Shown here in pieces: positions 38,864 through 62,200 of a DNA stretch of 64,000 nucleotides. Location: NCBI GenBank assembly GCA_044229075.1, contig JBGATS010000001.1, forward strand, positions 275-64,274. Direction: 5' to 3'. The stretch's first letter is position 1, and the number at the start of each line of letters is the position of its first letter. Made by a program: the position numbers and the translations under genes. The notes beneath the pieces are model-generated. The model searched no databases and was not told where the DNA came from. It saw only the letters and a program-made list of their open reading frames with translations. The stretch comes from Minisyncoccia bacterium. GTDB lineage: Bacteria > Patescibacteriota > Minisyncoccia > Phycocordibacterales > UBA1006.

Positions 38864-38890
38864 AAAAAATACCCCTTGGGTATTTTTTGT
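38864..38890. terminator. bidirectional terminator (aaaatacccc-tt-gggtatttt)
   Basis: hairpin with flanking A/T runs 55 bp upstream of phhB start; ends a minus-strand transcript coming from 38895-39220. Confidence 0.5.
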
Positions 38891-39220
38891 TTGTATCTCT
38901 ATTGTACCAAGTCCGAACCTATCTCCAAAATCGTAATCACTAGCATTCCCCGCGCATTACGCACCTCTGTGCGAAGCGCAGGGATTTCCAAGAATGAAAA
39001 GTGCGGGAGAACACTAAATGCAAATGTCGACTCGGTTTTTTGATTACAGGAAGTTTTTTTCTTTTTTTGGTGGACGAGCTAAAATAAAACCGCCTATTTT
39101 AAATAGTCGGTTTATGCGAGACCCTGCTTCCTCTGGGCTCTCCATTTCATTATGATAAAACGGGGACAAAATCAATACTCATGTCGATGACAATTCCTCA
39201 AGAGTGTGAGATTCATACTA

Positions 39221-39577
39221 CTACCGCAAATATCCGTTCGGAATAATATCCATAACTCTACAAGGGAAAAGTGTTACCTCTTTTACTTGTTCATCAAGAA
39301 TAAACCCAACAAGAATTTCTTGTGCTTGAACGAATTTTGCGTCAACGGTATGAATGAATGCTCGGTCGGCAGGACGAACAGCTATACTCACTCGTTTGGA
39401 AATAAGTTCCGAAGGGTCGTCTTTCTTTACGATAACCAGCTGTGCTTTTTGGTTATTTTCAGACATTACAACCTCTTGCTTAAACAGTATTTCGCAAGTA
39501 TCTATTGGAAGTATTATTGTTTCTTCTGAGATTTGAGTGAACATCACATGTTCTTTACCAATGTCTATTGTATGCAT
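39221..39577 (-). CDS. hypothetical protein
   Basis: 118-aa ORF. Confidence 0.35.
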   Translation of the reverse strand: MHTIDIGKEHVMFTQISEETIILPIDTCEILFKQEVVMSENNQKAQLVIVKKDDPSELISKRVSIAVRPADRAFIHTVDAKFVQAQEILVGFILDEQVKEVTLFPCRVMDIIPNGYLR

Positions 39578-39690
39578 AATGTACGATTTTTTGTTTGGAC
39601 ATATTATATCATATACAATTTATTTGTCAAACAAAAAACAGGGTGAAGAACCTGTTTTTTGAAATTTAAATTAGAGCTTATACATTAGCA

Positions 39691-40896
39691 TTACTCTTTC
39701 TCTTCTTTTTTCTCAAAATTCTTTCGTAATTTCATTGCAAAATCACCATCGGAATTTTTTAATACCCCTAAAGACTGTGCGTGCTGTATACCACTACTAA
39801 GTGGTAGTAATACTTTTTGTCTTGGGTTTATTCCTTGTTTATCTAACTTGTTGTGTCTATCAAAAATAATAGCAGTTTTTTCATCAATTGGTGATACATC
39901 ATTCAAATCATCTGCAACAAACTCTGGTTCGATATCTAATTCTGATTTTATTTTTTCAGATAAAATTATTGTAGGAAATAATAATTTTATCTTTTCTTCT
40001 TTAATTGCATCATCTATATAACCCTCTATTGTTTTACCTTCTCTAATGGCATATTCTTTGCTGTTGTCTTTAAATTCATCACTCCTATAATAGTTAACAT
40101 TTCTTGTTTTTTCAAGCAAGGCATCTAATTTTATCATTTTTTCTTTTAAAAAATCACTCTCTAGGAAATTTTTAGCTTTGTTTATTATTTCTTCTTTTTG
40201 ATCTACTGGAATATTATTATACATGTCTTCAATAGAGTATTTACTTGTCACATCACCTACATGATCTCCAATATTTGAAATAGCCAAAACGACACGGTTT
40301 ACTTCTGGAACCTGATCTTTAATAAGAGATACTACTTCCCCAGCGTCTACATCATCAAAAAGTCTTTTAAATTCATTACCTCGTTGTAATGAATTTGCAA
40401 CAACAGAATCAAGCTGACTTATTTCTATTCCTTTGTTTTTAAGAATATCGTTTAAAGTACCTCTCAAGTCAACTTCTCCATTGTCAGAATTTTTAAAATT
40501 AGTATTCTCTGGAAAATCATCTTCTGTTAGTTTTTTGTATCCAAATACAGCATTATAACAAGTATTATCAAGAGTAACTTTCGAATCTGAATGTTCTAAA
40601 ATCTCGTTCAAAATAACTTTTGCATTTGGCTCTTCTCCTGCTTGGAAAAGTGGTTCTATGTCTGGAAACATTTTATTATAAAGTGCATTTCCACGAAAAA
40701 TTGGGTAATATTCAAGCTCACCAAGTTTCTCTTTGTTTTCTCGATTTTCGTGATGAGCTCTTTTTGCTTCTTGATATTCTTCAGTCTGTTGCGCTTCTTC
40801 TAAAGTCTCCTGTGCTTTTTCAGGATCAGTTTTGCGAATCTCTTTTAAATCTTTCGCGAGGTTATCACGATATTCTTTTGCATTAAAATTTTCCAT
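39691..40896 (-). CDS. hypothetical acidic protein (~400 aa)
   Basis: start placed at MENFNAKEY; C8/G8 homopolymer 50 nt upstream. Confidence 0.45.
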   Translation of the reverse strand: MENFNAKEYRDNLAKDLKEIRKTDPEKAQETLEEAQQTEEYQEAKRAHHENRENKEKLGELEYYPIFRGNALYNKMFPDIEPLFQAGEEPNAKVILNEILEHSDSKVTLDNTCYNAVFGYKKLTEDDFPENTNFKNSDNGEVDLRGTLNDILKNKGIEISQLDSVVANSLQRGNEFKRLFDDVDAGEVVSLIKDQVPEVNRVVLAISNIGDHVGDVTSKYSIEDMYNNIPVDQKEEIINKAKNFLESDFLKEKMIKLDALLEKTRNVNYYRSDEFKDNSKEYAIREGKTIEGYIDDAIKEEKIKLLFPTIILSEKIKSELDIEPEFVADDLNDVSPIDEKTAIIFDRHNKLDKQGINPRQKVLLPLSSGIQHAQSLGVLKNSDGDFAMKLRKNFEKKEEKE

Positions 40897-41930
40897 ATAG
40901 TTTTTGTATAAAAAGTTAATAATAAAGTGGAGAGACAATACCATTTTACCCCCCCCCCGATACAAAGTCAATGTTATATTTTCCTTGCTATTTTTATCTA
41001 TTTTGTCAATATTCGGCAAAATCGGGGCAACCGGGAGTGGTCGCGCATTCGACACGCCCACGTATTGGCTCATTCAGAGCCTCTTAGTTCTGTTTTTGTG
41101 CGCGAGAGAGGACTTGGTCACACATAATTTTTCTGACGAAAAATTTGCTCGACCCTGCCTCGCGGCGTTCGCCTTTTCGCTTTCGCTCAAAACTCACGCA
41201 ACGCTCCAACTTTCAAGTCCTCACGTACGCAATGCAGGTTGCGTACTTCTCTAAACAAGTATACTAAAAACAGCGAAATAATCGCTGTTTTTAGTATATA
41301 GTGCCGGTACAGGAACTCAGCTTGAACTCCTCAATTCATTAGAATATATGCTCAATATGGATAAAAAGCTATCAGAATTTAGCGTATCTCTTACAGAAAT
41401 ATATGAAGGTAAGCATACAGTAAGTACACTACATATCCCTAACCTTATTTTATAGATCTTCATATTGTTCTGTATTTACACAACAATATACATATCTTGT
41501 AAATAGTTAGAAAAAAGAGTATACTTAACCATATGAACAAGAAAGATAATCTCTCTGAACTGGTCCAAATAGTGCAGGATCAGAAAAAGCCAGAACCTAA
41601 AAATGATACTCGTGTAATTACCAATGACGGGACCGTGGTTATTTTGGATACAAAATCTCCAAAAACTACATAGTTGTGTATCTACAGCATAATCTGTGTT
41701 TTTACCTCCTTAATTCCTTTGTTTTACAATGTATACGGGTAGTTGTATCTTGAACGTAGTGAAAGGTACCATACCCCAGGGAAAACGATTAAAAAGTTAC
41801 CGAAGTTTATTTCCTAAAATATCCATACATAGTAACTAAAAATTGAAAATATAGACCACACTTCGTGTAAAAATACACTTCAAAAAACTCTATTTTCTGA
41901 TATACTTTGAAGGTAAAATTTAATAAAAAA

Positions 41931-42104
41931 GACCTAACCCCTAGAAGTCATTTTAGGATATGGTCGCAAATCCAATCACGAATAAAGAACTCCTCGTCAG
42001 AGTTCCGTGATTGGTCGTGCAAGGAAACTTGTGCGGAGCCTATGGCTCGCTTCTGATGGGGAGCTTTTTGTTACCCAAATGAAGTTTAAATCCAATCACA
42101 TTTT
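41931..42104 (+). promoter_or_regulatory. conserved structured 5' leader, copy A (paralogous to 63250-63448)
   Basis: Shared gacctaacccc...tatggYgcaaatcc-X-aaaaa(c)ctcctcgtc.g.agt.c-X'-gg...ggaaac...ggggag...aaaYcc-X-ttttATGAAT. Segment X covaries between copies (aatcacg here, gctaaagtg in copy B). Confidence 0.5.
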
Positions 42105-42593
42105 ATGAATTCATTTTTTACATTTCTCCTATTAATTTCTGTAATAGGTTTCATTATTGGCTTAATTAAGCCGACGTTACTAAAACTACACTCTAGAAAA
42201 CAATCGGCTACTATTTTTGGTATAGCAATTATAATCCTTTTTATACTTGTTGGTGCAACAGCTAAAAAAGTACCGGTCCCTGTTGTTGTAGAAGAAGTAC
42301 CCAAGGTGACAGAAACTAAACCAGCTGAAACTGTAACCAGCACTACCACACCAAATACAACCAATCGTGAAAGTATCCTTGCCCTCCTAAAAACCACTGC
42401 AAAAGCAAAATGGGGAGACAATTACCAAATGGTGAAATACGAATATGATAATCAAGTAGAAGCGTATGACTGGGTTATAGCACAAACTGCGTACCCAGAT
42501 ATTATGACTACCGCAAAAAGTAAGTGGGGTAATAATTATCAGATGGTGAAGTATGAGTATGAGAACCAAGTGAAAGCATTTAAAAGTTTATAA
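42105..42593 (+). CDS. hypothetical membrane-anchored protein with Thr/Pro-rich linker and two KWGDNYQMVKYEY repeats
   Basis: N-terminal TM, internal tandem repeat. Confidence 0.45.
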   Translation: MNSFFTFLLLISVIGFIIGLIKPTLLKLHSRKQSATIFGIAIIILFILVGATAKKVPVPVVVEEVPKVTETKPAETVTSTTTPNTTNRESILALLKTTAKAKWGDNYQMVKYEYDNQVEAYDWVIAQTAYPDIMTTAKSKWGNNYQMVKYEYENQVKAFKSL

Positions 42594-42646
42594 ATAAAAA
42601 TAGCCACCTCAATTATGGGTGGCTATAATTTTTGAACATAATTCTA

Positions 42647-43135
42647 CTAAACTTCTTGCGGTGTTAATGCGATAAGTAGCGTGTTTGCCATCTTGATACC
42701 ATCGTCAGTATTTCTGAAAAACAATACGTCATCCGTAATATCCAACCAACCAACAAGTTTTTCATTTCTTAGTGGTTTACCTGAGACGATATCATTTAAG
42801 CCAGAATACTCACCGTGACCATCGTGATTAGGCGTCGTCCAGCTTTTAATTTTTTCAATATACTCATCTTTCTCAGATTTAGATATAAGTACTAAAAAGG
42901 TGGCACCACAAATTTCTTCAGTAAACAGCTCTTTATCTTTTTTATGAAAAATATTTTGAAGAGATTTAGGGATGGATCCAAATTCATATTCAGAAGCTCC
43001 CATATAATCAAAATCAACTATTTTTAGTAATTCTTTTTTTCCTTCGTTATTAAGTCCACGAAGAGGAGCAATACTGCCAAACGGATTTTCAAAACCTTTA
43101 GGAGGCATAAGTCTTTGAAGAAGATTTTTTCTCAT
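42647..43135 (-). CDS. hypothetical protein
   Basis: 162-aa ORF. Confidence 0.4.
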   Translation of the reverse strand: MRKNLLQRLMPPKGFENPFGSIAPLRGLNNEGKKELLKIVDFDYMGASEYEFGSIPKSLQNIFHKKDKELFTEEICGATFLVLISKSEKDEYIEKIKSWTTPNHDGHGEYSGLNDIVSGKPLRNEKLVGWLDITDDVLFFRNTDDGIKMANTLLIALTPQEV

Positions 43136-43266
43136 TTTTATTAATTTTTAATTTTATGAAATTTAAATATATATTAGCACGAAATAAATATAAAGTCAAC
43201 ACCATTTCATAAATTAAGCTTAGTATTTATATTCAAAAAATATCCCAAAAATGCTAAACTACCCGT

Positions 43267-44901
43267 ATGGAAAGCAATATAACCGTACAAGACCTTGCTA
43301 AACTCTTTCGTTCAGATATTGAACACAATGAAGCAACTCCTCAAACACTCAAATACGTAGTATATCTCCGTAAATCTACCGAAGAAAAAGGTAAGCAAAT
43401 CCGCTCTATTCCCGATCAAAAGAAAGAGTGTCTTGAATATGCAAAACGAGAAGGAATTAATGTTAAAGATATTGTCGTAGAAACACGATCCGCAAAAGAA
43501 AGTGGTACTCGTCCCTATTTTAAAAAAATGCTAGAGGATTTAAAAACTGGTAAATACAATGCAATCCTTGCGTGGCACCCCGATAGACTAGCTCGTAATA
43601 TGAAAGACGCGGGTGAGATTATAGATTTTTTAGATAGAGACTATATCCGTGATATGAAATTTGTCAGCTTTACCTTTTCAAATGACACGAGTGGTAAACT
43701 CTTACTCGGTATTACATTTGCAATGTCTAAAGAATACTCGGACAAGCTTTCTGATAACGTAACGCGTGGTAATACTCGAAAAATGGAAGAAGGTAAAATA
43801 GTAAGTTTTATTCCCAAAGGATATTACAAAGATAGCCGTGATTTTCCAAGACCAGACGGTGTGGCTTTTGAAGTTATTTCAAACGCCTTTCGTATGCGAC
43901 TAGAGGGTGAAACTATGGAAAGTATCGCGAAGAGTTTAAATACACAAGCACTACTCGTAAATAAAACTGCTGAAAATAAACTTGGAGTATATCGTAAACA
44001 GCAAGTAATGCGAATGTTAGAAAATCCATTTTATGCAGGTGTCTATTTACACGGAGAGAAAATAGAGATACTTGGTAATGGTTATGATTTCAAACCAATA
44101 ATTACCCCCGAAGAATATTTACTCATAAACAAGAAAACCGGAGAAAAGTCAGGTAAACTCAAACGGGTACTCCGTTTCTTTAAAAAAGAAGGAGTAAAAG
44201 CAGATCTATTACGCCAGTGTGTTTTATGTGCAGAATGTGGACACACTATGTCAGCTGGTATTATGACCAAAAAGACAAACAAAGGTATAGAGAATAGATT
44301 TCACTATCGGTGCGATCAGAAAGACTGTATATCGAGAAACAAGAATGTACGACCAAGTATCATAATTAGTTACGTAGCTGATTATATAGAAACTCACTTT
44401 AGTCCAAGTAGGGCAAAATGGGAGCATTATCAAGTAGAAGCCAAGAAAGACTTCGCACTACTCAAAAGTCGTCTTGTAGGTGAACTAACAGCTCTCACAG
44501 CCCATAAAACGGACCTTACAAACGGTATGACTGATACAAGACTAGAGTTACGTCGCTTAATAGAAGAAAATGGTAATGAGGAGCTACGAAAAGACTATGA
44601 AGTAGATTATATGAAAATGAGTAATGAACTTAAAGAGGTGGATCTTTTAATAACAGAATGTAAAGAAAAAACAAAAGAAAACCTTAAACTTCTGGACCAA
44701 ACAGAGTTTCTTGAACTTATGCAAAATCTCCCTAATTTTATTAGGAATACAAGAGATATGAAAGTTCTCGACGAAATCATTAGAAAAATCTTCTTGAACT
44801 TCACCGTAAACCAAAAAGGAGTAATAAGCTCAACACTTAATACTCCTTTCGATATGGTTTTAGGACCAAAAGTCCCATATAGTGCGCGAGAGAGGACTTG
44901 A
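43267..44901 (+). CDS. large serine recombinase (resolvase-domain + recombinase + zinc-ribbon)
   Basis: The YLRKSTEE catalytic-serine context and the resolvase N-domain match large serine recombinases. The C-terminal Cys pairs (CVLCAECGH...CDQKDC) fit a zinc-ribbon. It is paralogous to the 53397-54752 gene. Confidence 0.85.
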   Translation: MESNITVQDLAKLFRSDIEHNEATPQTLKYVVYLRKSTEEKGKQIRSIPDQKKECLEYAKREGINVKDIVVETRSAKESGTRPYFKKMLEDLKTGKYNAILAWHPDRLARNMKDAGEIIDFLDRDYIRDMKFVSFTFSNDTSGKLLLGITFAMSKEYSDKLSDNVTRGNTRKMEEGKIVSFIPKGYYKDSRDFPRPDGVAFEVISNAFRMRLEGETMESIAKSLNTQALLVNKTAENKLGVYRKQQVMRMLENPFYAGVYLHGEKIEILGNGYDFKPIITPEEYLLINKKTGEKSGKLKRVLRFFKKEGVKADLLRQCVLCAECGHTMSAGIMTKKTNKGIENRFHYRCDQKDCISRNKNVRPSIIISYVADYIETHFSPSRAKWEHYQVEAKKDFALLKSRLVGELTALTAHKTDLTNGMTDTRLELRRLIEENGNEELRKDYEVDYMKMSNELKEVDLLITECKEKTKENLKLLDQTEFLELMQNLPNFIRNTRDMKVLDEIIRKIFLNFTVNQKGVISSTLNTPFDMVLGPKVPYSARERT

Positions 44902-44965
44902 ACCTCCACCCCGTTGCCAGGACTACCACCTCAAGGTAGCTTGTCTACCAGTTTCAACACTCGCG
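44882..44965 (-). tRNA. tRNA-Leu (anticodon GAG), class II long variable arm
   Basis: Cloverleaf folded by hand: GCGCGAG acceptor, anticodon loop UUGAGGU, T-arm GGAGGTTCAAGTCCTCT. Confidence 0.8.
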
Positions 44966-45017
44966 CAATGAAGCCCAGTATACTGGGATTTATTTTTTTG
45001 TAAAGAAAAACTGCATT

Positions 45018-46628: not shown

Positions 46629-47990
46629 TCAAAGTGGTTTTTCTAGTTTTGAAAAATCTACTAATAATTCATTAAGTCGGTTACTAACAGGATCAGTAGT
46701 ATTATCTTCTAATAAATTTTTAATCTCTGGATATTTCCAGGAAAGTTCTGTTAACGAATTAATCATTGCGTCATATCGACGAAATACACTGTTTTGGGAA
46801 TTTTCGGCAAATTCAGAAAGAATACGACATTGATGAATAATTTGTTTCATTATCTTTAATTTTTGAGGATTTTTATAAAATGTTTCAAATAATTCTATAT
46901 TTTCTGAATTTTGTAATATTAACACTAACTCTTTTACGTCTTCCAACTGAAAACATATTAATATTTTTGGAACAATAAATTCGCTCAATAAATTTCCTTG
47001 GTAATCCATACCATATTTTATCTTTGTTTTGTATCCCTGTTGAATAGAGGAAAGTAGTCCAAAAAACTTTTGACGAAATTCCTCACTTTCAAGACCGCGA
47101 AAAGTTACGTCAATTCCAAGCCCAAGAAAATCACTCGATTCATCATGTTTTACAATTTCTAACGTACTATCAACCCCACGCTTTATATCGTCAAATTCTG
47201 AAGCGAGATTCATTTTAACCTCGTCACCAAAACATTTTACTTGATCAATAAGAAAAACCAACGCTCGTTCTGTTAATGTTGCAATTTTCTTTGCCTGTTC
47301 AAGTTTTCTCTGCTGATCTTTTTCTGGATGTTGTTTTTGGGTGAATAACTCTTTGGTTTTTTGAAGACTCTCGAAATCCTGTTTTGCCTCTTCTTCGCCG
47401 TTTTTCAACAATCCTCTCTCTGCAAATTTTGTGTAATATTCTAGACTTCCAGTATTGTTAATTGATTCTAGAAAACTAGTTTTCTTGTACAATCTTTCGA
47501 GTTCCTCTTGATTTTTAAAAATATTAGCTTTTGCAATTTCTTCATCCAAAAGGTTTGCTTCTATGATCTTTAATTGGTCTTGGCTAATTTCTGCTTGCTG
47601 TATTCCACTTAATTGAAAATATTCAGTTTTTACTTCTTGGAACACTTTTTCTACTTTTTGTTTCTTTTCTTTAATTGGTTCAGTAATAATTCCTGCGTTT
47701 CTGAGGGTGTCAATCACTTCTTCTGTATGTGCAGCTGGGTGTAGTTTTTTTATAATACCTGATATATATTCTGAAAGTTTTATAATGTTTTCTGGTGTAT
47801 CAAAAAAAGAAAAGTTGTTCATTTGTCCGGTCACGATGTATTTTTCAAAAAATTTCTTCGCAGCGAGCCACGAACTGGATGACGCTGTATCAGCGAAAAA
47901 ATTATGCGCATTCTCGATATCTTTATCAGAAAAAATATTTTGCGCGACCGACTTGTTGTTAAAAGGGTTTAAAAAATTTGAAGATAACAT
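46629..47990 (-). CDS. hypothetical protein (453 aa, helical/acidic)
   Basis: long ORF, no domain recognised. Confidence 0.45.
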   Translation of the reverse strand: MLSSNFLNPFNNKSVAQNIFSDKDIENAHNFFADTASSSSWLAAKKFFEKYIVTGQMNNFSFFDTPENIIKLSEYISGIIKKLHPAAHTEEVIDTLRNAGIITEPIKEKKQKVEKVFQEVKTEYFQLSGIQQAEISQDQLKIIEANLLDEEIAKANIFKNQEELERLYKKTSFLESINNTGSLEYYTKFAERGLLKNGEEEAKQDFESLQKTKELFTQKQHPEKDQQRKLEQAKKIATLTERALVFLIDQVKCFGDEVKMNLASEFDDIKRGVDSTLEIVKHDESSDFLGLGIDVTFRGLESEEFRQKFFGLLSSIQQGYKTKIKYGMDYQGNLLSEFIVPKILICFQLEDVKELVLILQNSENIELFETFYKNPQKLKIMKQIIHQCRILSEFAENSQNSVFRRYDAMINSLTELSWKYPEIKNLLEDNTTDPVSNRLNELLVDFSKLEKPL

Positions 47991-48177: not shown

Positions 48178-48250
48178 GCGGGATTAGCTCAGTTGGTAGA
48201 GCAACTCATTTACACTGAGAAGGTCGGGGGTTCGAGTCCCTCATCCCGCA
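48178..48250 (+). tRNA. tRNA-Val (anticodon TAC)
   Basis: GCGGGAT acceptor, D-arm GCTCAGTTGGTAGAGC, anticodon loop TTTACAC, T-arm GGGGGTTCGAGTCCCTC. Confidence 0.85.
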
Positions 48251-48450
48251 CAAAACAGTATGTCTGGACGCGATAGCGTTCAGGCATTTTGTTTTGTCGC
48301 AAGGGGTAGGGACGAGAAAAACGGAGGCGGTTTACGAAATTTCGAAGTATGAGAAATTTTGTCGCCGAGTTGGGGTCGCGAGTCAAAAATCAATGAGCTC
48401 GCGAATATGATTTTTGAGACTTGTGACCGAGTCTCTCATCCCGCACAAAA
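48251..48450 (+). repeat. ~200-bp tRNA-Val-flanking mini-element ending in 23-bp copy of tRNA-Val 3' end (cgagtctctcatcccgcacaaaa)
   Basis: internal ~140 nt homologous to the element after tRNA-Ser (shared gcggtttacgaaatt.cga...gagaattttgtcgc motif; 9-bp IR near right end). Confidence 0.55.
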
Positions 48451-51397: not shown

Positions 51398-51482
51398 GGA
51401 GGCGTGGATGAGTGGTTTAAATCAACAGTCTTGAAAACTGTCGACTCGAAAGGGTCCGTGAGTTCGAATCTCACCGCCTCCG
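51398..51482 (+). tRNA. tRNA-Ser (anticodon TGA), class II
   Basis: GGAGGCG acceptor, anticodon loop CTTGAAA, long variable arm, T-arm GTGAGTTCGAATCTCAC. Confidence 0.85.
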
Positions 51483-51683
51483 CTATAACATAATGAACCC
51501 AGCACGAAAGTGTTGGGTGATTTATGTTACCGGAAAGGCGTGAGATGAGAAAAGAGCGAAGCGGTTTACGAAATTCGAGGAACGAGAATTTTGTCGCGAG
51601 CGGCGGGGCCGAGCGAGTGAGATATTTTATGAGCGAAGCGAAATAAAATATCCACGAGGGTGGCCGAATCTCACCGCCTCCGC
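51483..51683 (+). repeat. ~200-bp tRNA-Ser-flanking mini-element ending in 18-bp copy of tRNA-Ser 3' end (gaatctcaccgcctccgc)
   Basis: homologous to element after tRNA-Val. Confidence 0.55.
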
Positions 51684-53396: not shown

Positions 53397-54752
53397 TTAC
53401 TTTAATAAAGTTATTTTCTTCTCTTTCAGTATCAACCTACTCCTTAAATGTCCCATAAGTTCACGCTTTTCAAGTGGTGTACCTTCTCGCAATACATACT
53501 TAGCATACTCTCTGGTATTCACATCATCCTCGTTGATGCTGTATTTTGGTGTACCTTTTGTTGCTAGTCTTTGTAGTCTATTGAATCGCTTTATTTCTTC
53601 CTCGAGCTTCATTCGCATACCTAACTCATTAATACTCACTTTATCTATGACCTTGAATAGTTCCTCGATAAGTTCCTCCTCTCGTATGTATTTGTTCTTA
53701 CAATTTCTATCTTTTGCCTTAGAGCATGAGTAGTAGATATATTTTGCATTGGTTCCATCTTTGAGCAACTTGTATTTTTCTTGAGCTGTTATACCTGACT
53801 GGCACATTCCGCATGTAAATAATTTCGTAAAGGCAAACTCTCGATTTTCTCGAACAATTTTATCTCGCTTTAGATGTTCTTGTGCTTTTTTAAACAACTC
53901 TTCATCAATTATTGGCTCATGACTTCCTTGGTACCAATTACCGCTATTTTTAGGATATTCGAATGGTCCATAATATATCGGCATATCAAATATACGATAA
54001 ACCCCTGAGAGTGTCAGGGGTTTGTTTCCTCGAGTATAAAAATTTAACTCAAATCGCAACCAGTTGTATACCTTGCGACCACTCCAATTTTCATAGGCAA
54101 CCTTTTCAAACATTTTTTTGATTATTGGGGCTCGCTCTGGATCAATGGCGAGCTGACATTTTCGATCCATAATTTTCTGGTTGAGATATCCAAGTGGTGC
54201 CATTCCAGGCCAGAGACCCATTTCTACTCGTGTACGAAGTCCGCGCTTCACATTGATACCTCGGTTATCGTTCTCAAGTTTTGCTTGCGATCCGAGAATC
54301 ATTAGGAGAAATTTCTCATTTGGATTATTTGAAAACGTCTGTCCGAAAGTTCGTATTTGGAGGAGTTTACCTGCATCCATCAGGTCTACGATTTTTCCTA
54401 GATCTCCGGCGTTTCTGGAAATACGATCTGGTGCCCATGTCAGAATCGCATTATATTTACCATCTCGAATTTCCTCTACGATTTCATTAAATACGGGTCG
54501 TTGTCCAGTTTCTTTTGCGCTGTGACTTTCTCGTTTCATAGCTACAATCTCTAGTCCTTCACGTTCGGCGAGTGCAAGCATTTCATTAATTTGAGAGTCT
54601 ATTGAAAGTACCTGTCTCTCCTCAGACTCTGTCGACTTTCTTGCATAAAGGCAATATTTCGCCTTTATTATATTTTGCTCTACTGGGGCTATTTCATAGC
54701 CATTTGGTGCATTTATTTTCATACACCTAACTAATGCCGCAGGACGTCCCAT
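53397..54752 (-). CDS. large serine recombinase (paralog of 43267-44901)
   Basis: YARKSTESEERQV...DRISRN catalytic domain, recombinase domain, C-terminal Cys cluster. Confidence 0.85.
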   Translation of the reverse strand: MGRPAALVRCMKINAPNGYEIAPVEQNIIKAKYCLYARKSTESEERQVLSIDSQINEMLALAEREGLEIVAMKRESHSAKETGQRPVFNEIVEEIRDGKYNAILTWAPDRISRNAGDLGKIVDLMDAGKLLQIRTFGQTFSNNPNEKFLLMILGSQAKLENDNRGINVKRGLRTRVEMGLWPGMAPLGYLNQKIMDRKCQLAIDPERAPIIKKMFEKVAYENWSGRKVYNWLRFELNFYTRGNKPLTLSGVYRIFDMPIYYGPFEYPKNSGNWYQGSHEPIIDEELFKKAQEHLKRDKIVRENREFAFTKLFTCGMCQSGITAQEKYKLLKDGTNAKYIYYSCSKAKDRNCKNKYIREEELIEELFKVIDKVSINELGMRMKLEEEIKRFNRLQRLATKGTPKYSINEDDVNTREYAKYVLREGTPLEKRELMGHLRSRLILKEKKITLLK

Positions 54753-54793
54753 AAGTCTAGGTTCTTTGAAAAATAACTGTTGGTAACTAAATA

Positions 54794-55426
54794 TTGCAAA
54801 AGCTTGCTTTTATTTTAAAAGTGCAGTATACTCTTTACATGCAAAAGAAATTGAGTCAATTAGCAACCATAGTTTCAGGGTACACATTCCGTGGATCTAT
54901 AGAAAACGACCCAAATGGAGATATTTTTGTGCTCCAAGCTAAAAATATACAAACGAGTCGAGATATTGAGGATGTATTTGATTTTACAACAATTTCAGAT
55001 AAGTCTTTAAGAAATCCCTACTTCCTCCAATACAATGACATCTTGCTTGTTTCTAGAGGGTCAGGACTGGGTTCATTCAGATCTGCAGTTTTTATATCAA
55101 ACGAACCAAACGTGATGCCATCATCTTCAGTCCATGTAATACGAATTCATGATGTCACAGTCCTCCCTAAATATATATCGCTTTATCTCAACTCAGAAGT
55201 CGGACAAAAAGCATTATCTCAAATAGTTACAGGCGCTTCCTATATACAAAGTATCCTCGTAAAGAATCTAATAGATTTTGAAATTCTTATACCCCCGATC
55301 CATATACAAAAATCTATTATCTCACTACACGAAAATATTACAGACCAAGAACGGATACTAAAAAGAAAACAGGAACTACAAAAAAACATTATCAATGCAT
55401 CGTTTACTAACCTAATTAATAACTAA
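54794..55426 (+). CDS. hsdS: type I RM specificity subunit, half-size (single TRD)
   Basis: 210 aa with one TRD + conserved helical region; directly abuts hsdM. Confidence 0.65.
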   Translation: MQKLAFILKVQYTLYMQKKLSQLATIVSGYTFRGSIENDPNGDIFVLQAKNIQTSRDIEDVFDFTTISDKSLRNPYFLQYNDILLVSRGSGLGSFRSAVFISNEPNVMPSSSVHVIRIHDVTVLPKYISLYLNSEVGQKALSQIVTGASYIQSILVKNLIDFEILIPPIHIQKSIISLHENITDQERILKRKQELQKNIINASFTNLINN

Positions 55427-55427
55427 T

Positions 55428-56939
55428 ATGACTAATCAAAAATACACACAAGAAGACTTAAACAAAATCCTCTGGCAAGCAGCGGATTCTTCTCGCATAC
55501 AAGTTGACGCAGGTGTTTACAAAGACTACGTACTTGCAATGCTTTTCTTTAAATATCTTAGCGACCTTTCAAAAAAGAAACGAAATGAATACAAAGAACG
55601 TTTTGGTAATGATGAAAAACGTACTGAAGAAAAAATGAAGCTTGATCGCTTCTATCTTCCTCCAAAGTCTTCTTTTGATTATATCTATTCTATCCTCGAA
55701 CAAGACAATCTTGGTGAAGAAATAAACAAAGCACTTCATCGTATTGAAGATGCCAACAAGGAAAAACTTGATGGTGTATTTTCTGTAGACTTCAATTCTG
55801 AATCAACTTTAGGAAAACTTGCAGAGCGAAACAAAATGCTCCGTCATCTAGTACAAGACTTTGCAAAAATGGATCTCTCGGATGTAAATGACGATATTAT
55901 TGGTAATTCATATATGTACATGATTGAGCGCTTTGGAGCCGATGCAGGCAAAAAAGCAGGAGAATTTTTCACTGTGCGTAACGTTGCTCATCTTGTAGCA
56001 AGACTAGCTGAACCAAAAGTAGGTGCACGTATTTGTGATCCATGTTGTGGTTCTGGAGGACTACTACTGCTTGCAGGTGAAGAAGTAGAAAAACAAGGTT
56101 CAAAAAACTATGCTCTTTACGGTCAAGAATCTACAGGATCAACCTACCAACTCGCTCGTATGAACATGTTCCTCCATGGAAAAGACTCTGCACGACTTGA
56201 ATGGGGCGACACATTAAATAATCCTCTTCTTGTAGAAAATGATCACTTAATGAAGTTCGACACCATTGTTGCCAATCCTCCGTTTTCTCTTAAAAAATGG
56301 GGTGCTGAACATGCAGAGGCTGATAAGTATAAACGCTTCTTGCGTGGTGTTCCACCAAAAGACAAAGGTGACTTTGCTTTTATTACTCATATGGTAGAGA
56401 CACTTAAACCAAAGACTGGTCGCATGGCAGTAGTTGTTCCTCATGGTGTTCTCTTCCGTGGAGGAGCAGAAGGAAAAATCCGTGAGCAACTTCTTAAAGA
56501 GAATATCGTTGAAGCTGTTATCGGACTTCCTGCAGGGTTGTTCCAAACAACTGGTATTCCTGTAGCAATTCTTATACTTGATCGCTCACGAGAAAAAGGA
56601 GGAGAAAATGAAAACAAAAAAGATGTATTCTTTATCGAAGCATCAAAAGAGTTCAAATCTAACAAAGCGCAAAATATTCTTACTGATGAAAATATCGAGA
56701 AGATTTATTCTACTTACAAAACTCGTAAGGATGTAGAAAAATTTGCTCGTAAAGTAAGCCTTAAAGAAATTGAGGAAAATGATTTCAATCTCAACATCAC
56801 TCGTTATGTAGATACATTCACAGAAGAAGCTCCTGTAGATATCAAAGCAAATTTGAAAGAGCTTGCTGAGCTTGAACCACAGCTAGAGAAGCTTGAGAAA
56901 CAAATGGTCGTATATCTAAAGGAGCTAGGAATTAAATAA
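55428..56939 (+). CDS. hsdM: type I RM N6-adenine DNA methyltransferase subunit
   Basis: NPPF motif (IVANPPFSLKKW), AdoMet motif I DPCCGSGG. Confidence 0.9.
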   Translation: MTNQKYTQEDLNKILWQAADSSRIQVDAGVYKDYVLAMLFFKYLSDLSKKKRNEYKERFGNDEKRTEEKMKLDRFYLPPKSSFDYIYSILEQDNLGEEINKALHRIEDANKEKLDGVFSVDFNSESTLGKLAERNKMLRHLVQDFAKMDLSDVNDDIIGNSYMYMIERFGADAGKKAGEFFTVRNVAHLVARLAEPKVGARICDPCCGSGGLLLLAGEEVEKQGSKNYALYGQESTGSTYQLARMNMFLHGKDSARLEWGDTLNNPLLVENDHLMKFDTIVANPPFSLKKWGAEHAEADKYKRFLRGVPPKDKGDFAFITHMVETLKPKTGRMAVVVPHGVLFRGGAEGKIREQLLKENIVEAVIGLPAGLFQTTGIPVAILILDRSREKGGENENKKDVFFIEASKEFKSNKAQNILTDENIEKIYSTYKTRKDVEKFARKVSLKEIEENDFNLNITRYVDTFTEEAPVDIKANLKELAELEPQLEKLEKQMVVYLKELGIK

Positions 56940-56943
56940 ATAT

Positions 56944-58071
56944 ATGAAAAACTTTGATTATAAAATTGTAGAACAAAAGTACCCTGACAGTTTAAGCCAG
57001 AATGGTTTTGATTTGATATTTAAAAATCCAGATCATGGGGCTTTAAATTTTTCGGAAATCGAAGCAGAATTTGTTGAATATTATGATATGTTTTTTGAAT
57101 TAGAAAAACTTGATTACAAAAATTCTCTATATCAGGAAGAAATTAATAACGTAGATAGAATAAGAAACGAACTAATAAATATATTTAACCAAATACAACA
57201 ATTTTCTATATCTGTACCAAACCCAACTCATGTTAAACAAAATATAATTAATCAGTTTAGAGATCAGATAAATAGAAATTCAAAACCTATAGAAGATTTC
57301 ATTTTAAAAATTAAATCAAAGAAATTCTTTGATTCTTCTGAAGGATCTAAAGCATTTGAAGAGATTCAAAAAGAAAAAGATTTAATTATTATCGAAAAAA
57401 ATAAGATTGAAAAAATTTCAGAGGAAATTGAAAGATATAGAGATGAATTAAAAGAGAAAATTAAAAACACTCAATTTGAAAAAATAGTTCAAACAGAGAG
57501 AACTAGCGGCGAACTAGAGTCAGCATCATTCTTTGAAGAGCAATCCTTAATTCATAAATTAAACGCTGATCAAATTGAAAATGAATTAGGGTGGCTACAA
57601 AAAAGAACAAAATTTGAAAAATATATTTACTGGCTTTTAGGGATTAGTGCGGGATTATTTTTGCTTAGTTTTGTTTTCTTAGTTATCTGGGGTGGCGTAA
57701 ATGAAGATGTACAAATTATTGATGCGATTAAGGTATGGGAAGCGTTCTGGGATATAAGAGCTGGACTTTTTATTCTTTCTTTGCTTTCTATTTTTTACAC
57801 GGGTTTATATTTTGCTACTAAAAATTATTCAAGAGAAAAAGACTTTGAGTATCAAAATAAGAATAAATCAAATATAGTAAAAAGTGTTGGATTATTTTCA
57901 TCTGGATCATCTGATCAAATTAGGCAGAATATTTATGAGATTGCCGCACGAACAATCTTTTCTGCCTACTCATCGTTTAATGAAGTAGATAAAAATCAAA
58001 ATTCTCAAATAAATCTTTCAGCTTCAACCGCTGACATAACTAAAAAGATTACATCAGCACATGAAAACTAA
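56944..58071 (+). CDS. RM-embedded hypothetical protein: ~220-aa coiled-coil N-domain + two C-terminal TM helices
   Basis: It is translationally coupled, 4 nt after the hsdM stop and overlapping the hsdS start by 11 nt. TM helices at YIYWLLGISAGLFLLSFVFLVIWGG and AGLFILSLLSIFYTGLYFA. Confidence 0.5.
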   Translation: MKNFDYKIVEQKYPDSLSQNGFDLIFKNPDHGALNFSEIEAEFVEYYDMFFELEKLDYKNSLYQEEINNVDRIRNELINIFNQIQQFSISVPNPTHVKQNIINQFRDQINRNSKPIEDFILKIKSKKFFDSSEGSKAFEEIQKEKDLIIIEKNKIEKISEEIERYRDELKEKIKNTQFEKIVQTERTSGELESASFFEEQSLIHKLNADQIENELGWLQKRTKFEKYIYWLLGISAGLFLLSFVFLVIWGGVNEDVQIIDAIKVWEAFWDIRAGLFILSLLSIFYTGLYFATKNYSREKDFEYQNKNKSNIVKSVGLFSSGSSDQIRQNIYEIAARTIFSAYSSFNEVDKNQNSQINLSASTADITKKITSAHEN

Positions 58072-59242
58072 TCAACCACAAAAAAATATTTCTTCAGATT
58101 GGCAACAAGTAAAGCTTGGTGCGGTTTGTGATATTTCAGCTGGCGGTACACCATCTACTGACATTTTAGAATATTGGGAAAATGGAAGTATTCCTTGGGC
58201 AAATTCTGCAGAGATAAATAAAAGAGATATTTATAAAACTAATAATTTTATTACACAAAGTGGTTTAGATAATTCATCTGCAAAAATTGTCCCAGAAAAT
58301 AGTGTTTTAATTGCACTTGCAGGACAGGGTTCCACTCGTGGTAAGGTTGCAGTTAATAAAATACCTTTATCAACAAATCAGTCTCTTGCTTTTTTTGTGC
58401 CTAAAAAAGATGTTGATTACCGATTTTTAAGATCAGTTCTTGAAATGAGATATCAAGAATTAAGATCTATTTCTACAGGTGATGGCGGTCGCGGTGGTTT
58501 AAATTTACAAATATTAAAATCACTAAAGATAAAACTCCCACCTCTCCCTGAACAAAACCGGATAGTTTCAGTCCTTGAAACTTGGGATAAATCTATTGAG
58601 AAACTCGCACGGAAAATTGAAGTAAAAAAACAAATCAAGAAAGCTTTGATGGATCAATATGTCTACAAAAGGAAAGATTCAACTGAGTATTTTATTGATA
58701 GTTTATTCGAACTCGGAAGGGGGCGTGTTATCGCTAGGGGTGAGATAGAAAATAATCCCGGTATATATCCTGTTTATTCTTCTCAGACATCAAATAGTGG
58801 AATATTCGGGAACATTTCTACATATGATTTTGAGGGTGAATATCTTACTTGGACAACTGACGGTGCTAATGCTGGGAGGGTTTTTTACAGAACTGGAAAG
58901 TTTAATTGTACGAATGTCTGTGGTACAGCAAAACTGAAAAAAGATTTAAAGGTTAATTTATATTTTGTCTATTCATATTTGAACTACATAACAAAGAATT
59001 ATGTTTCTTATGTTGGTAACCCCAAACTGATGAACGGTGTTTTTGGGAAAATTCAAATCAAACTACCAGATATCGAAGAGCAGGATAAAATTAGTAAAAT
59101 TTTAATTGTCTCAGACAAAGAAATAACCGAACTCGAAAAGAAATTATCCATTATCAGAGAACAGAAACGTTATCTCCTCAACAATTTAATCACTGGCACA
59201 ATTCGTACACCAGATACATTATCAACCAATAAACTCATATAA
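58061..59242 (+). CDS. hsdS: type I RM specificity subunit (two TRDs)
   Basis: 393 aa, duplicated TRD + conserved coiled-coil spacer architecture. Confidence 0.85.
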   Translation: MKTNQPQKNISSDWQQVKLGAVCDISAGGTPSTDILEYWENGSIPWANSAEINKRDIYKTNNFITQSGLDNSSAKIVPENSVLIALAGQGSTRGKVAVNKIPLSTNQSLAFFVPKKDVDYRFLRSVLEMRYQELRSISTGDGGRGGLNLQILKSLKIKLPPLPEQNRIVSVLETWDKSIEKLARKIEVKKQIKKALMDQYVYKRKDSTEYFIDSLFELGRGRVIARGEIENNPGIYPVYSSQTSNSGIFGNISTYDFEGEYLTWTTDGANAGRVFYRTGKFNCTNVCGTAKLKKDLKVNLYFVYSYLNYITKNYVSYVGNPKLMNGVFGKIQIKLPDIEEQDKISKILIVSDKEITELEKKLSIIREQKRYLLNNLITGTIRTPDTLSTNKLI

Positions 59243-59246
59243 ATAT

Positions 59247-62200
59247 ATGTTAGAAAAAGTAAATTTTGATGAAGCACGACAGTCACAGCTCCCATTCATA
59301 GAGCTTCTCTTGAACATGGGCTATACATATATTCCTGCAGAGGAAGCACTACGACAACGCGGTGGTGATACTTCTAATTTCATTCTCGCTGACATAGCGA
59401 CTGAAAAGTTGATGGAAATAAATGGTTATGAGGTTGGTGGGACTGAATACAAATTCAGTGAGAAAGACGTACGAGATGCTATCGATGAATTAGAGCATAT
59501 CCAATATGAAGGACTCATTGATACTGCACAAAAGATCTACAACACCATCATGCCAACAAGCGGCGGTAAGACTGTTAAGGTAAATCATGGCGGTAAAAAA
59601 GTATCAAAGAATTTCAAATTCATTGATTTTGAAAACCCAAAAAATAATTCATTCCACGTAACTGCTGAGTTCGTCGCTAGTGGTAAGCAAAATATTCGTC
59701 CAGATATTGTATGTTTTGTGAATGGTATTCCTTTCGTAGTTATTGAAAACAAGAAGTCAGGTGTTGCTGTTGTAGAAGCACTTAACCAGATGAACCGCAA
59801 TCAAGGTCCTGAGTATTGTCCAAAACTATATACCTACACACAGCTTCTTGTTGGTACAAATGGTAAAGATTTACAATACGGCACAACTGGTACACCAAAC
59901 AAGTTCTATGCTGTGTGGAAAGAGAAAGGCACAGACGAAGACGTATTGAATGGAGAAATATCTAAACTCATACAAAAAGAAATAGATGCTACTACTTACT
60001 CGGAAATTTTACAGGATCTCAACGGATACACAGATGGTCACAAACAAAGAACAGACCGCCTTCCTACTGAACAAGACCGAGGAGTGTTTTCACTTTTTGA
60101 ACCTGTGAGACTTCTTGATCTTACAAAGAACTATATTCTCTTTGATGCAGGAGTAAAGAAACTTTCTCGCTATCAACAATACTTTGCTATCCATAAAATG
60201 CTCAAGCGTGTTGAAGAGGAAGAAACTACCGAACAAGGTATCACTCGCCGAAAGGGTGGGCTTGTTTGGCATACGCAAGGATCTGGTAAATCACTAACGA
60301 TGGTGATGTTTGTTAAGGCTCTCATTGAAGATCCTCATATCCTTAACCCTCGTGTGATTATTGTTACTGACCGTCGAGATTTGGATAAACAAATCAAAGA
60401 CACATTCAAGAACTGTAACCTAAAAAAGGAAGTTATTCAGGCTACAAGTGGTCAAAACCTCATTGATCTTATTAAAGAGAAAAATCTAGCAGTTATTACT
60501 ACTCTGGTACAAAAGTTTGAATCAGCTGCAAAAAAGAGTGCTGGGTTTGTTGATACTGATGAAAATATTTTCGTACTTATCGACGAAGCTCACCGAAGTC
60601 AGAATGGTGTCGCCAACTTTGAAATGGGTCGCATTATTCCGAATGCATCTTATATCGGATTCACAGGTACTCCACTCATGAAGGATGAGAAAGAAAGTTG
60701 GAGAAAGTTTGGAGGATATATCGATAAATATACTATTGATGACGCTTTAGCCGACAACATAATCCTGCCTCTTATCTATGAAGGTCGCTATGTTGATCTT
60801 ATTCAAAATGCTGAGCAAATCGATCGTCATGTTGAGCGTATCACTGAAGGTTTGAACGAAAAACAAAAAAAAGAATTACAACGTTATATTGGAAGTAAGA
60901 TCATTAAAGACAATCCTCAGCGTATTGTTGAGATTGCGTATGATATTGAAAAACACTTCATGTCTAACTTCCAAGACACAGGGCTTAAGGCACAAATTGT
61001 TGCCCCATCAAAATACTCTGCTATTTTATTCCAGAAGTTTTTTGAAACACGAGGGAAAATAAGAACTGCCGTCATTATCTCTGATGAGCATGAGGATGGT
61101 GATGAAGAAAACCTTCATAAAAAAGAAGTGGTTGCTTACCTAGAAGGTGTCCGAAAAAACCATAGTAGCGTCGATAAGTATGAGAAAGATGTTGTTGAAA
61201 GTTTCAAGTATAACGATGATGGAATCGAAGTCATCATTGTTTGTGACAAACTACTCACGGGTTTTGATGCACCTAGAAATACCGTCCTATATCTTGCTAA
61301 AGACTTACGCGATCATAATCTTTTGCAGGCTATCGCTCGTGTAAACCGTTTGTTTGAGAATAAGAAAGAAAAACCAAAGACTGCTGGCTACATAATGGAC
61401 TACTCAGAGAATGCTAAGAATATCGATACTGCGATGAAGCTCTTTGGTAACTATGATGAGAATGATGTAAAAGGCACTCTTATTGATGTTGCAGAAAAGA
61501 TTCAAGAACTTGAGCAAAGTTATTCTCTTGTTCACGATATTTTTAAGGAAGTCAAAGGATCATCTGATGATGAGGTATATTTACAGTTCCTTTCTGATCA
61601 ACCAAAGCGAGAAACGTTCTACAAAACCCTCAATGCTTTCATTAAGAATCTAAGTGAATGTTTTGTATTGCAGGACTTTGTTCATGAGTTCAAACATCTT
61701 GATTTGTACAAGCGTGAACTCAAGAAATTTGCTGAACTTCGTAAGGCAGCTAGTTTGCAATATGCAGACCGTGTTGATCTATTAGAATACAAACAATCAC
61801 TTGTTAATATTCTCGATAAATATGTTGATGCTCGTGGAGTTGAACTTCTTACAAAACAAGTAAACATTACCGACCGAAAACTTTTTGAGGAAGCTGTCGA
61901 GAATCTCGGATCTGATAAATCAAAAGCTGAAGCTATCGCTGCACAAACTCAAAAAACTATCACTGAAAAACTTGATACTGATCCTGAGTTTTACGAAAAG
62001 TTTTCTAAAAAGATTTCTGAGATTCTTGAAAAAATGAGGCTCGGTAAGCTTGCCGATGTTGAAGCATTAAAACAAATGAAGTTAATTCGAGATGATGTTG
62101 TAAATAAGAAAGATGAAAGCCTTCCAGGAAAAATTGACTCACAAAAAGGATCGGATGTCTTTTATCGTAACTTACGAACACAATTCGATAGTCTAAAACT

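What the first reader, a model, noticed from the sequence alone, without database searches (positions are those of the whole stretch)
41098..44901. Compact 3.8-kb integrative element at tRNA-Leu(GAG) with overlapping large serine recombinase
The 19-bp direct repeats gtgcgcgagagaggacttg lie at 41098-41116 and at the tRNA-Leu 3' end. The recombinase ORF overlaps the tRNA by 20 nt on the opposite strand. A near-palindrome aattttt-ctgacg-aaaaatt sits just inside the left repeat. Cargo is minimal: one copy of the conserved leader RNA + repeat-containing membrane protein, one hypothetical, and a possible 47-aa ORF at 41533-41676 (MNKKDNLSELVQ...). Elements whose tRNA-end duplication is paired with a serine rather than tyrosine recombinase are less common.
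Basis: partly seen in the sequence, partly recalled or inferred. Interest (0 to 1): 0.5.

Follow-up and report, generated by a model that had tools for sequence, protein, structure and literature searches.

The report
Small tRNA-targeting serine-integrase mobile element
A 3.6-kb mobile element sits at the 3' end of a leucine tRNA gene in a Patescibacteria genome, and its serine integrase gene is cut by integration so that its last ~49 codons end up at the element's far end; about 100 related loci share the overlap with a tRNA gene and I found no description of this group.

Summary
The stated features are all present: the 19-bp repeats, tRNA-Leu(GAG), a 544-aa large serine recombinase (LSR) overlapping the tRNA by 20 nt, and the palindrome. 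The boundaries are wrong.

- **Empty sites.** Four closely related strains lack the recombinase and cargo but keep both 19-bp repeats and the ~185 bp between them. The repeats therefore belong to an older miniature insertion.
- **Real insert.** It is 3581 bp, from 41296/41304 to 44877/44885. It is flanked by ATATAGTGC, with crossover inside GTG(C) at the tRNA discriminator.
- **Site architecture.** The T-loop motif CTTGAAC lies GTG+12 nt in the tRNA arm and GTG+17 nt in the element arm. I recall this 5-bp offset as typical of LSR attB versus attP. It recurs in three other elements.
- **Split gene.** attP lies inside the LSR gene. Integration detaches 49 conserved codons (dN/dS 0.14) to the far end, next to a conserved 46-aa ORF. 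One related contig carries the unsplit 577-aa form.
- **Family trait.** The LSR stop codon lies inside an antisense tRNA in 100 of 176 related loci, covering 27 isoacceptors.
- **LOOT RNA.** This orphan Rfam family (RF03000) travels inside these elements.

I rate it a new variant of a known kind. No circular junction was found for this element itself.

The parts
41098..41300 (-). Older tRNA-3'-end 'module', not part of the LSR element. It comprises the distal 19-bp copy of the tRNA-Leu 3' end (41098-41116), the palindrome (41127-41146), an internal inverted T-arm piece, and a 17-bp-stem terminator hairpin (41260-41298).
   Evidence: It is present, directly abutting tRNA-Leu, in the empty-site strains L001, L002, L004 and L005. 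The RNA fold has z = -5.6. The terminator hairpin was found. There is no Rfam match.
41296..41304 (+). attL core, ATATAGTGC. The crossover is narrowed to GTG(C), 41301-41304.
   Evidence: L002 positions 3195-3203 align to both 41304-41296 and 44885-44877. The ATACT/ATATA polymorphism in L001 and L091 restricts the shared core to GTG.
41301..41327 (+). P-type half-site of element origin. It reads GTG, then 17 nt, then CTTGAAC (41321-41327), and is an imperfect mimic of a tRNA 3' end.
   Evidence: The same GTG+17 spacing occurs in L007, L009 and L010, and also in L088 by hand count on the sequence printed.
41305..41455 (+). Detached 3' end of the recombinase gene: 49 codons plus the stop. It reads in frame with 43267-44885 once the element is circularised (GTGTQLELLNSLEYML...IPNLIL*).
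   Evidence: The reconstructed ORF is 589 aa. L007 has a homologous peptide at the same place (tblastn E = 6e-9). Eight such peptides align. dN/dS is 0.14 against L091.
41533..41673 (+). Conserved small ORF of 46 aa with an NDGTVV motif. It is a candidate directionality factor or regulator.
   Evidence: Homologues sit just after the detached LSR end in L007, L009, L010, L041 and L089, and just after the full-length LSR in L088. Against L091 there are no non-synonymous changes, with dS = 0.11.
41931..42072 (+). LOOT RNA (RF03000) followed by a conserved terminator-like hairpin. It is the 5' leader of the next gene.
   Evidence: LOOT lies inside related LSR elements. It is always 55-73 nt upstream of a gene for a small protein with a hydrophobic, apparently membrane-spanning segment, judged by eye.
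42105..42593 (+). Cargo gene: a 162-aa protein with a hydrophobic N-terminal region and two KWG(D/N)NYQMVKYEY repeats.
   Evidence: There is no Pfam or PADLOC match, and only weak PHROG matches to the N-terminus. A terminator follows at 42600-42626.
42647..43135 (-). Cargo gene: a 162-aa orphan protein, transcribed divergently from the recombinase.
   Evidence: Only 2 clusters were found among 5.8 billion proteins. No Pfam, PADLOC or PHROG match. In L091 this gene lies outside the element.
43267..44901 (+). Large serine recombinase in its integrated, C-terminally truncated form (544 aa). The last four codons and the stop come from the antisense tRNA.
   Evidence: Pfam Resolvase 1.2e-23 and Recombinase 1.6e-11; Zn_ribbon_recom at 20.8 bits falls below its 25.3-bit cut-off. 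S37 and four cysteines are invariant across 24 homologues. dN/dS is 0.086.
44877..44885 (+). attR core, ATATAGTGC.
44882..44966 (-). tRNA-Leu(GAG), the target. The B-type half-site reads GTG (44882-44884), then 12 nt, then CTTGAAC (44897-44903, the T-loop).

Best explanation
Window 41305-44881, plus one copy of the core ATATAGTGC, is a 3.58-kb integrative element moved by its own large serine recombinase (LSR).

**Shown**
- The element is present or absent among strains that are 93-98% identical in the flanks, with a junction precise to the base.
- The junction lies at the discriminator end of tRNA-Leu(GAG), so the whole mature tRNA stays of host origin.
- Both arms carry the T-loop motif CTTGAAC, 12 nt from GTG in the tRNA arm and 17 nt in the element arm.
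- The LSR reading frame continues across the circular junction into 49 conserved codons at the far end of the integrated element.
- The 19-bp repeats belong to an older ~200-bp insertion that is also present in empty-site strains.

**Inferred**
- The LSR dimer binds the tRNA acceptor/T-arm as the attB half-site. It exchanges strands at a GT or TG dinucleotide.
- Only the excised circle encodes the full-length 589-aa enzyme. The integrated copy makes a truncated enzyme with a junk tail read from the antisense tRNA.
- This swap, possibly together with the adjacent 46-aa ORF, biases the direction of recombination.
- Read-through from the tRNA, which loses its terminator on integration, may act as antisense RNA against the LSR message.
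- LOOT RNA and its downstream small-protein gene are a conserved payload of unknown role.
For: **Empty sites and junction**
- L001, L002, L004 and L005 are empty sites, and L002 and L005 show a 9-nt double alignment at the junction.
- An identical integrated copy comes from another sample (L092), and a 94%-identical variant from a third (L091).

**Recombinase and its sites**
- LSR domains and catalytic residues are present.
- GTG+12 versus GTG+17 spacing holds in all four elements with both ends known.
- The attP arms are nearly identical in the sibling element L190, although its LSR is only 75% identical.

**Split gene**
- The extension is homologous in eight elements and under purifying selection.
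- In L088 the 577-aa LSR, the extension and the small ORF are contiguous. That contig has a 30-nt terminal overlap, as expected of a circle.

**Family trait**
- The LSR stop lies inside an antisense tRNA in 100 of 176 related loci. Among near-full-length matches with a stop on the contig, the figure is 68 of 76.
Against: - No circular (attP) junction of this particular element was found. The JGI scan gave 0 hits, and no cluster member has the 589-aa form.
- The circularity of L088 rests only on a 30-nt terminal overlap.
- The left arms (P_L and B_L) show only weak dyad symmetry with the right arms.
- The 9-bp core alone would not be significant. The boundaries rest on the strain comparison.
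- The AlphaFold model of the extension is low-confidence, with pLDDT below 45.
- The right junction of L091 joins to an unidentified sequence rather than the tRNA.
- No activity has been measured.
Confidence: 0.85

Rival explanations
1. One reading: a 3.8-kb element (41098-44901) whose attL and attR are the 19-bp tRNA-end repeats, in the style of a classical tRNA island.
For: The repeats are exact and non-random. They bracket the recombinase and cargo.
Against: Four strains keep both repeats and the 185 bp between them while lacking all of 41305-44881. The same kind of repeat sits 120-200 nt downstream of tRNA-Val and tRNA-Ser in this window, and of other Patescibacteria tRNAs, with no recombinase between the copies.
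Confidence: 0.04
2. The insert is ancestral and immobile. On this view the relatives lost it by deletion between the 9-bp repeats, and the recombinase is a fossil or has been domesticated.
For: No excised form of this exact element was found.
Against: - The breakpoints fall exactly at the predicted LSR crossover, with an attP-type arm on the element side.
- The LSR, the detached C-terminal codons and the small ORF are all under purifying selection.
- The same element occupies the site in a strain with a different island behind it (L091).
- A sibling element sits at another tRNA-Leu in the same sample (L190).
- A related element exists in the attP configuration (L088).
Confidence: 0.07
3. The ~200-bp module and the LSR element form one composite system. 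On this view the module is a non-autonomous partner or a required landing pad, and the same LSR mobilises it.
For: The element's host-side arm is the module's terminator hairpin. Modules and LSR elements co-occur at tRNA 3' ends in these genomes.
Against: - The module's identity block starts in the T-loop and runs 15-23 nt. I recall that pattern as typical of tyrosine integrases.
- The distal copy lacks the P-type GTG+17 CTTGAAC spacing.
- Most modules have no LSR nearby.
- L007's host-side arm is an ordinary terminator, with no module evident in the sequence read there.
Confidence: 0.04

Closest known systems
Phage and ICE large serine integrases (phiC31, Bxb1, A118/LI, TP901-1, SPbeta SprA)
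   Same: - Catalytic domain, recombinase domain and zinc ribbon with an inserted coiled coil.
- A very short shared core.
- An outer motif 5 bp farther from the centre in attP than in attB. That this offset is typical of the family is from my memory of published LI integrase-attP structural work, which I did not re-read here.
   Different: - The target is the 3' end of a tRNA gene. Mageeney et al. 2020 (PMC7192596) found only 14 such cases among 297 serine integrases and called them previously unreported.
- attP lies inside the integrase ORF.
- The elements are 2.6-8.4 kb and carry no phage or conjugation genes.
SSV1-type integrases of archaeal fuselloviruses
   Same: attP lies within the integrase gene, the target is a tRNA gene, and integration partitions the gene. 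This is from my own knowledge; the review PMC8371274 appeared but I did not read it.
   Different: SSV1 uses a tyrosine recombinase, is an archaeal virus, and integration splits the gene into two large parts. Here only the last ~45 codons are exchanged, and all catalytic and DNA-binding domains stay intact.
Tycheposons of Prochlorococcus (Hackl et al., bioRxiv 10.1101/2020.12.28.424599)
   Same: - Small cargo-carrying elements specific for tRNA genes.
- Successive integrations push older elements away from the tRNA and build variable islands.
- A minority (27 of 937) carry a large serine recombinase.
   Different: - Most tycheposons use tyrosine recombinases with partial-tRNA direct repeats, and many carry replication genes.
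- They occur in a different phylum.
- No split integrase or LOOT RNA is mentioned in the passages I read.
LOOT RNA motif (Rfam RF03000)
   Same: Both window copies score well above the gathering threshold, at 73.4 and 76.1 bits against 46.4.
   Different: Rfam files LOOT as an sRNA, and I found no functional description of it. Here it is a 5' leader of small-protein genes and lies inside LSR elements.
Integrase-less att-flanked remnants (CIME-like elements), as a reading of the 19-bp-repeat module
   Same: A short segment flanked by direct repeats of the tRNA 3' part, with no recombinase gene. The restored tRNA has its own terminator.
   Different: The modules are only 120-200 bp and recur at many tRNAs with shared internal motifs. 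No parent element has been identified. The comparison is from memory and was not tested.

Membership tests
Large serine recombinase (serine integrase) | N-terminal resolvase catalytic domain with the nucleophilic serine | tested here: met
   PF00239 matches at 1.2e-23. Y33, R35, S37, Q44 and R82 are invariant in 24 homologues.
Large serine recombinase (serine integrase) | C-terminal recombinase domain plus a zinc ribbon with an inserted coiled coil | tested here: met
   PF07508 matches at 1.6e-11. PF13408 scores 20.8 bits, below its 25.3-bit cut-off, but C321, C324, C349 and C354 are invariant. The AF2 model of homologue P0045 shows beta ribbons and long helices at 379-464.
Large serine recombinase (serine integrase) | Short crossover core, with attP half-sites longer than attB half-sites | tested here: met
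   The core is narrowed to GTG(C). CT[TC]GAAC lies at GTG+12 in the tRNA arm and GTG+17 in the element arm in all four elements with both ends known.
Large serine recombinase (serine integrase) | Catalyses attP x attB recombination | not testable with these tools
   This needs an in vitro or in vivo recombination assay.
Integrative genetic element (attL, attR, own integrase) | Precise presence/absence polymorphism at a defined site | tested here: met
   The site is empty in L001, L002, L004 and L005, and occupied in the window, L092 and L091.
Integrative genetic element (attL, attR, own integrase) | Excised circular form | tested here: inconclusive
   No such form was found for this element. 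The related L088 has the attP configuration and a 30-nt terminal overlap.
Classical tRNA island bounded by tRNA-3'-end direct repeats | The direct repeats mark the ends of the inserted DNA | tested here: not met
   Both repeats persist in strains without the insert.
Classical tRNA island bounded by tRNA-3'-end direct repeats | A tyrosine integrase is encoded next to the tRNA | tested here: not met
   The only recombinase is a serine recombinase.
SSV1-type split integrase | attP lies inside the integrase ORF, so integration partitions the gene | tested here: met
SSV1-type split integrase | Tyrosine recombinase fold | tested here: not met
   The protein is a serine recombinase.
LOOT RNA (RF03000) | Covariance-model score above Rfam's gathering threshold | tested here: met
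   73.4 bits against a threshold of 46.4.

The most novel reading that the evidence does not exclude
Patescibacteria may carry a large, undescribed clade of very small integrative elements whose serine integrase reads tRNA acceptor/T-arms as attB.

- Because attP lies inside its own gene, the integrase has one C-terminus before integration and another after. This would be a built-in directionality switch, possibly working with the adjacent ~46-aa protein.
- LOOT RNA would be a functional part of these elements.
- The ~200-bp tRNA-end modules would be a second kind of miniature insertion. They rebuild the tRNA end, strand older elements behind them and create a fresh attB.
Probability: 0.3. Interest if true: 0.8.

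Novelty: new variant of a known kind. Interest (0 to 1): 0.6.

Why it matters
- **tRNA targeting.** Serine integrases have been regarded as rarely, if ever, targeting tRNA genes (PMC7192596). Here a whole clade does so, against 27 isoacceptors. The readable rule is a T-loop motif at a fixed distance from the crossover.
- **Split gene.** An integrase whose own C-terminus is swapped by integration offers a simple, testable route to directionality control.
- **Genetic tools.** The elements are tiny (2.6-8.4 kb), their att sites can be defined to about 50 bp, and they are native to Patescibacteria. As far as I know that phylum has very few genetic tools, so these elements could serve as integration vectors.
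- **LOOT RNA.** The link gives an orphan RNA family a genomic context in which it can be studied.

Tried and rejected
- **attP junction search.** An exact search for GTCCCATATAGTGCCGGTACAG in JGI metagenome contigs gave 0 hits.
- **Look-up of the LSR.** An exact look-up of the 544-aa LSR in the contig index found nothing. I reached related strains through the L19 protein, the small ORF and the cargo ORF instead.
- **Cluster members.** Members of the LSR's cluster include no 589-aa form. P0123 and P0124 are integrated forms.
- **Circular contigs.** No terminal overlaps were found among the 176 genome, metagenome and viral loci.
- **Cargo function.** Pfam, PADLOC and PHROGs gave no function. The 162-aa minus-strand ORF is an orphan, so I did not model it.
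- **Extension structure.** The AlphaFold model of a full-length homologue gave a confident LSR body but pLDDT below 45 for the extension, so I ran no fold search.
- **Module.** An Rfam scan at a permissive E-value found nothing. A MAFFT alignment of 12 modules shows only patchy motifs, so I built no covariance model.
- **Misplaced recombinase.** The ORF 23944-25197, which I first took for the second recombinase, is an HI0933-like flavoprotein.
- **Module as LSR extension.** An open frame of about 55 codons continues from the left 19-bp repeat in the LSR's frame. It bears no resemblance to the conserved extension, so I rejected it.
- **Literature.** Five searches and the papers read found nothing on tRNA-targeting LSR elements in Patescibacteria. 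The Weinberg 2017 main text says nothing on LOOT, and its supplements are not held.
Full report
**1. The observation**

The 19-mer GTGCGCGAGAGAGGACTTG occurs exactly twice in the window, at 41098-41116 and 44882-44900. It never occurred in shuffled sequence. ARAGORN places tRNA-Leu(GAG) at 44882-44966 on the minus strand, so the right copy is the tRNA's 3' end.

The ORF 43267-44901 encodes 544 aa with Resolvase, Recombinase and zinc-ribbon domains, which makes it a large serine recombinase (LSR). Its stop codon at 44899-44901 lies 20 nt inside the tRNA on the opposite strand. The palindrome at 41127-41146 and the small ORF are also present. The ORF is 46 aa (41533-41673), not 47. The 'leader RNA' is Rfam family LOOT, RF03000.

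**2. The repeats are not the element's ends**

The ribosomal protein L19 encoded next to the tRNA occurs unchanged on five Logan contigs from related strains. In four of them (L001, L002, L004, L005), tRNA-Leu is followed directly by the sequence that lies at 41300-41117 in the window. The second copy of the 19-mer follows that. The recombinase and cargo are absent.

- **Double alignment.** L002 aligns to window 48090-44877 and then to 41304-41095. Nine query bases align to both places, and L005 shows the same.
- **Size of the insert.** The DNA that is present or absent is 3581 bp, bounded by ATATAGTGC at 41296-41304 and 44877-44885.
- **Status of the repeats.** The 19-bp repeats, the ~185 bp between them and the palindrome pre-date the element.
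- **Occupied sites.** The same element, 100% identical over 3 kb, is integrated in another sample (L092). A 94%-identical variant occupies the same site in a third (L091).

**3. Where and how it recombines**

L001 and L091 carry ATACT where the window has ATATA. In L091 the two junctions share only GTG. This places strand exchange at a GT or TG dinucleotide at the tRNA's discriminator position, so the whole mature tRNA remains host DNA.

- **tRNA arm.** The T-loop motif CTTGAAC begins 12 nt after GTG.
- **Element arm at attL.** The same motif begins 17 nt after GTG.
- **Other elements.** The same 12 versus 17 spacing holds in L007 (tRNA-Leu CAA), L009 and L010. The attP of L088 also shows GTG+17, by my hand count on the sequence printed.

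I recall a 5-bp outward shift of the outer motif in attP as a feature of serine-integrase sites, from published structural work on LI integrase that I did not re-read here. The sibling element L190 has an LSR only 75% identical, yet its attP arms differ from the window's at about two positions. That points to constraint on the site.

**4. The recombinase gene is split by integration**

Joining 44885 to 41305, as in a circle, extends the ORF from 544 to 589 aa.

- **Conservation of the extension.** L007 has an in-frame homologue at its far end, and both peptides end in IPNLI[LY]* (tblastn E = 6e-9). Extension peptides from eight elements in different Patescibacteria lineages align, with a shared LEL...(E/K)(F/W)N pattern.
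- **Selection (window versus L091).** dN/dS is 0.086 for the LSR and 0.14 for the extension. The 46-aa ORF has no non-synonymous change, with dS = 0.11.
- **Layout in integrated elements.** The order is attL, extension, small ORF, cargo, truncated LSR, attR/tRNA.
- **Unsplit form.** In the Logan contig L088 the 577-aa LSR, its extension and the small ORF are contiguous. The contig ends repeat 30 nt, as a k=31 assembler leaves on a circle.

I infer that only the excised form encodes the full-length enzyme. The integrated form ends in a few codons read from the antisense tRNA. AlphaFold gives a normal LSR body for the full-length homologue but no confident model for the extension.

**5. The overlap is a family trait**

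The LSR has 928 relatives at E < 1e-10. Most of the listed ones are about 540-560 aa, and those that carry a source name are from Patescibacteria. Their C-termini read like antisense tRNA ends (ERT*, GGT*, RTRT...).

| Set of loci | LSR stop inside an antisense tRNA |
|---|---|
| All 176 loci from genomes, metagenomes and IMG/VR | 100 |
| Near-full-length matches whose stop is on the contig (76 loci) | 68 |

The targets cover 27 isoacceptors. The literature I could search does not describe this. Mageeney et al. 2020 state that serine-integrase use of t(m)RNA genes was previously unreported and rare, at 14 of 297. Tycheposons include a few LSR-bearing members.

**6. Cargo**

LOOT RNA has a promoter-like site at 41879-41906 and is followed by a terminator-like hairpin at 42049-42064. 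It sits 56 nt upstream of a 162-aa protein that has a hydrophobic N-terminal region and two repeats.

- **LOOT in relatives.** It lies inside the LSR elements of L007, L009, L010 and L088.
- **LOOT position.** An nhmmer profile found 22 copies. Every copy in an LSR-centred locus lies 0.2-3.7 kb upstream of the LSR start.
- **Downstream gene.** LOOT is always followed within 55-73 nt by a small protein gene. By eye, each product has a hydrophobic, apparently membrane-spanning segment.
- **Other cargo.** The 162-aa minus-strand ORF is an orphan. Relatives carry an AAA_15/AAA_21 ATPase (L088) or a weak Abi_C match (L089).

**7. What the 19-bp repeats are**

The same arrangement follows tRNA-Val and tRNA-Ser in this window, and several tRNAs in other Patescibacteria. 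The order of parts is:

1. a terminator hairpin;
2. an antisense T-arm-like piece;
3. GC-rich motifs;
4. a hairpin;
5. GTGACC followed by a 15-23-nt copy of the tRNA's 3' part, starting in the T-loop;
6. often a second terminator.

This looks like a miniature insertion into the T-loop that brings a replacement 3' end. Beyond the distal copy the strains differ completely, and L091 holds there a remnant of an LSR element lacking its LSR. A plausible history is that older elements sat at the original tRNA end, the module later rebuilt that end, and the present element then took the new site. This history is speculative.

**8. Verdict**

The finding is a real, probably active, compact integrative element with corrected boundaries. 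It is a new variant of a known kind: a serine integrase that targets tRNA ends and whose gene spans its own attP.

The main gaps are the lack of an excised form of this exact element and the lack of any functional test.

Noticed in passing
window 48178-48450 (tRNA-Val) and 51398-51683 (tRNA-Ser); also L009, L018, L042, L054, L127, L152: About 10 of 223 tRNAs in the fetched loci (12-15 before tandem-tRNA cases are removed), including three of the four in this window, are followed by a 120-200-nt module. Each module ends in a 15-23-nt copy of the tRNA's 3' part and shares internal motifs such as GGGGTCGCGA and GTGACC. They look like miniature T-loop insertions, and no parent element is known.
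   Followed up: partly
window 38889-41092: The segment between the distal 19-bp repeat and the Pterin_4a gene differs in every strain. The window has a 460-aa and a 118-aa ORF. L001 has a PPDK_N gene and a 198-aa ORF. L091 has a copy of the element's 162-aa cargo gene with its promoter region but no LSR. This looks like an island of stranded older elements.
   Followed up: partly
window 53397-63838: A second, shorter LSR (451 aa, 53397-54752, minus strand) lies next to a type I restriction-modification system (hsdS fragment, hsdM, hsdS, hsdR, 54794-62438) and a YgjP peptidase. A second LOOT RNA (63250-63375) with its small-protein gene (63449-63838) follows. This may be a larger LOOT-bearing element, but it does not abut a tRNA.
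   Followed up: partly
L091 8760-8804: In this strain the LSR end joins to TCTCTATTGTACCAAGTTAGAACC rather than to tRNA-Leu. The motif spacing is close to the attP type, so this may be a tandem second element or a rearrangement. The contig ends there.
   Followed up: partly
L190 1-2958: A 2.9-kb sibling element from the same sample as L092 holds only the extension, the small ORF, one 168-aa gene and an LSR (75% identical), with no LOOT. It sits at a tRNA gene whose 3' 27 nt match tRNA-Leu(GAG) but whose body differs, apparently another tRNA-Leu.
   Followed up: partly
L088 118-1821; L089 1232-2404: Related LSR elements carry an AAA_15/AAA_21 ATPase and a protein with a weak Abi_C match. This suggests that some of these elements ferry defence genes.
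   Followed up: no
window 40950-40959: A run of ten C (ten G on the coding strand) lies in the 5' region of the 460-aa ORF, upstream of its more likely start at 40897. It could be a phase-variable tract.
   Followed up: no
window 47911-47945 and 56667-56701: A 35-nt inverted repeat, 89% complementary, links the start of the 453-aa ORF with the 3' part of hsdM.
   Followed up: no
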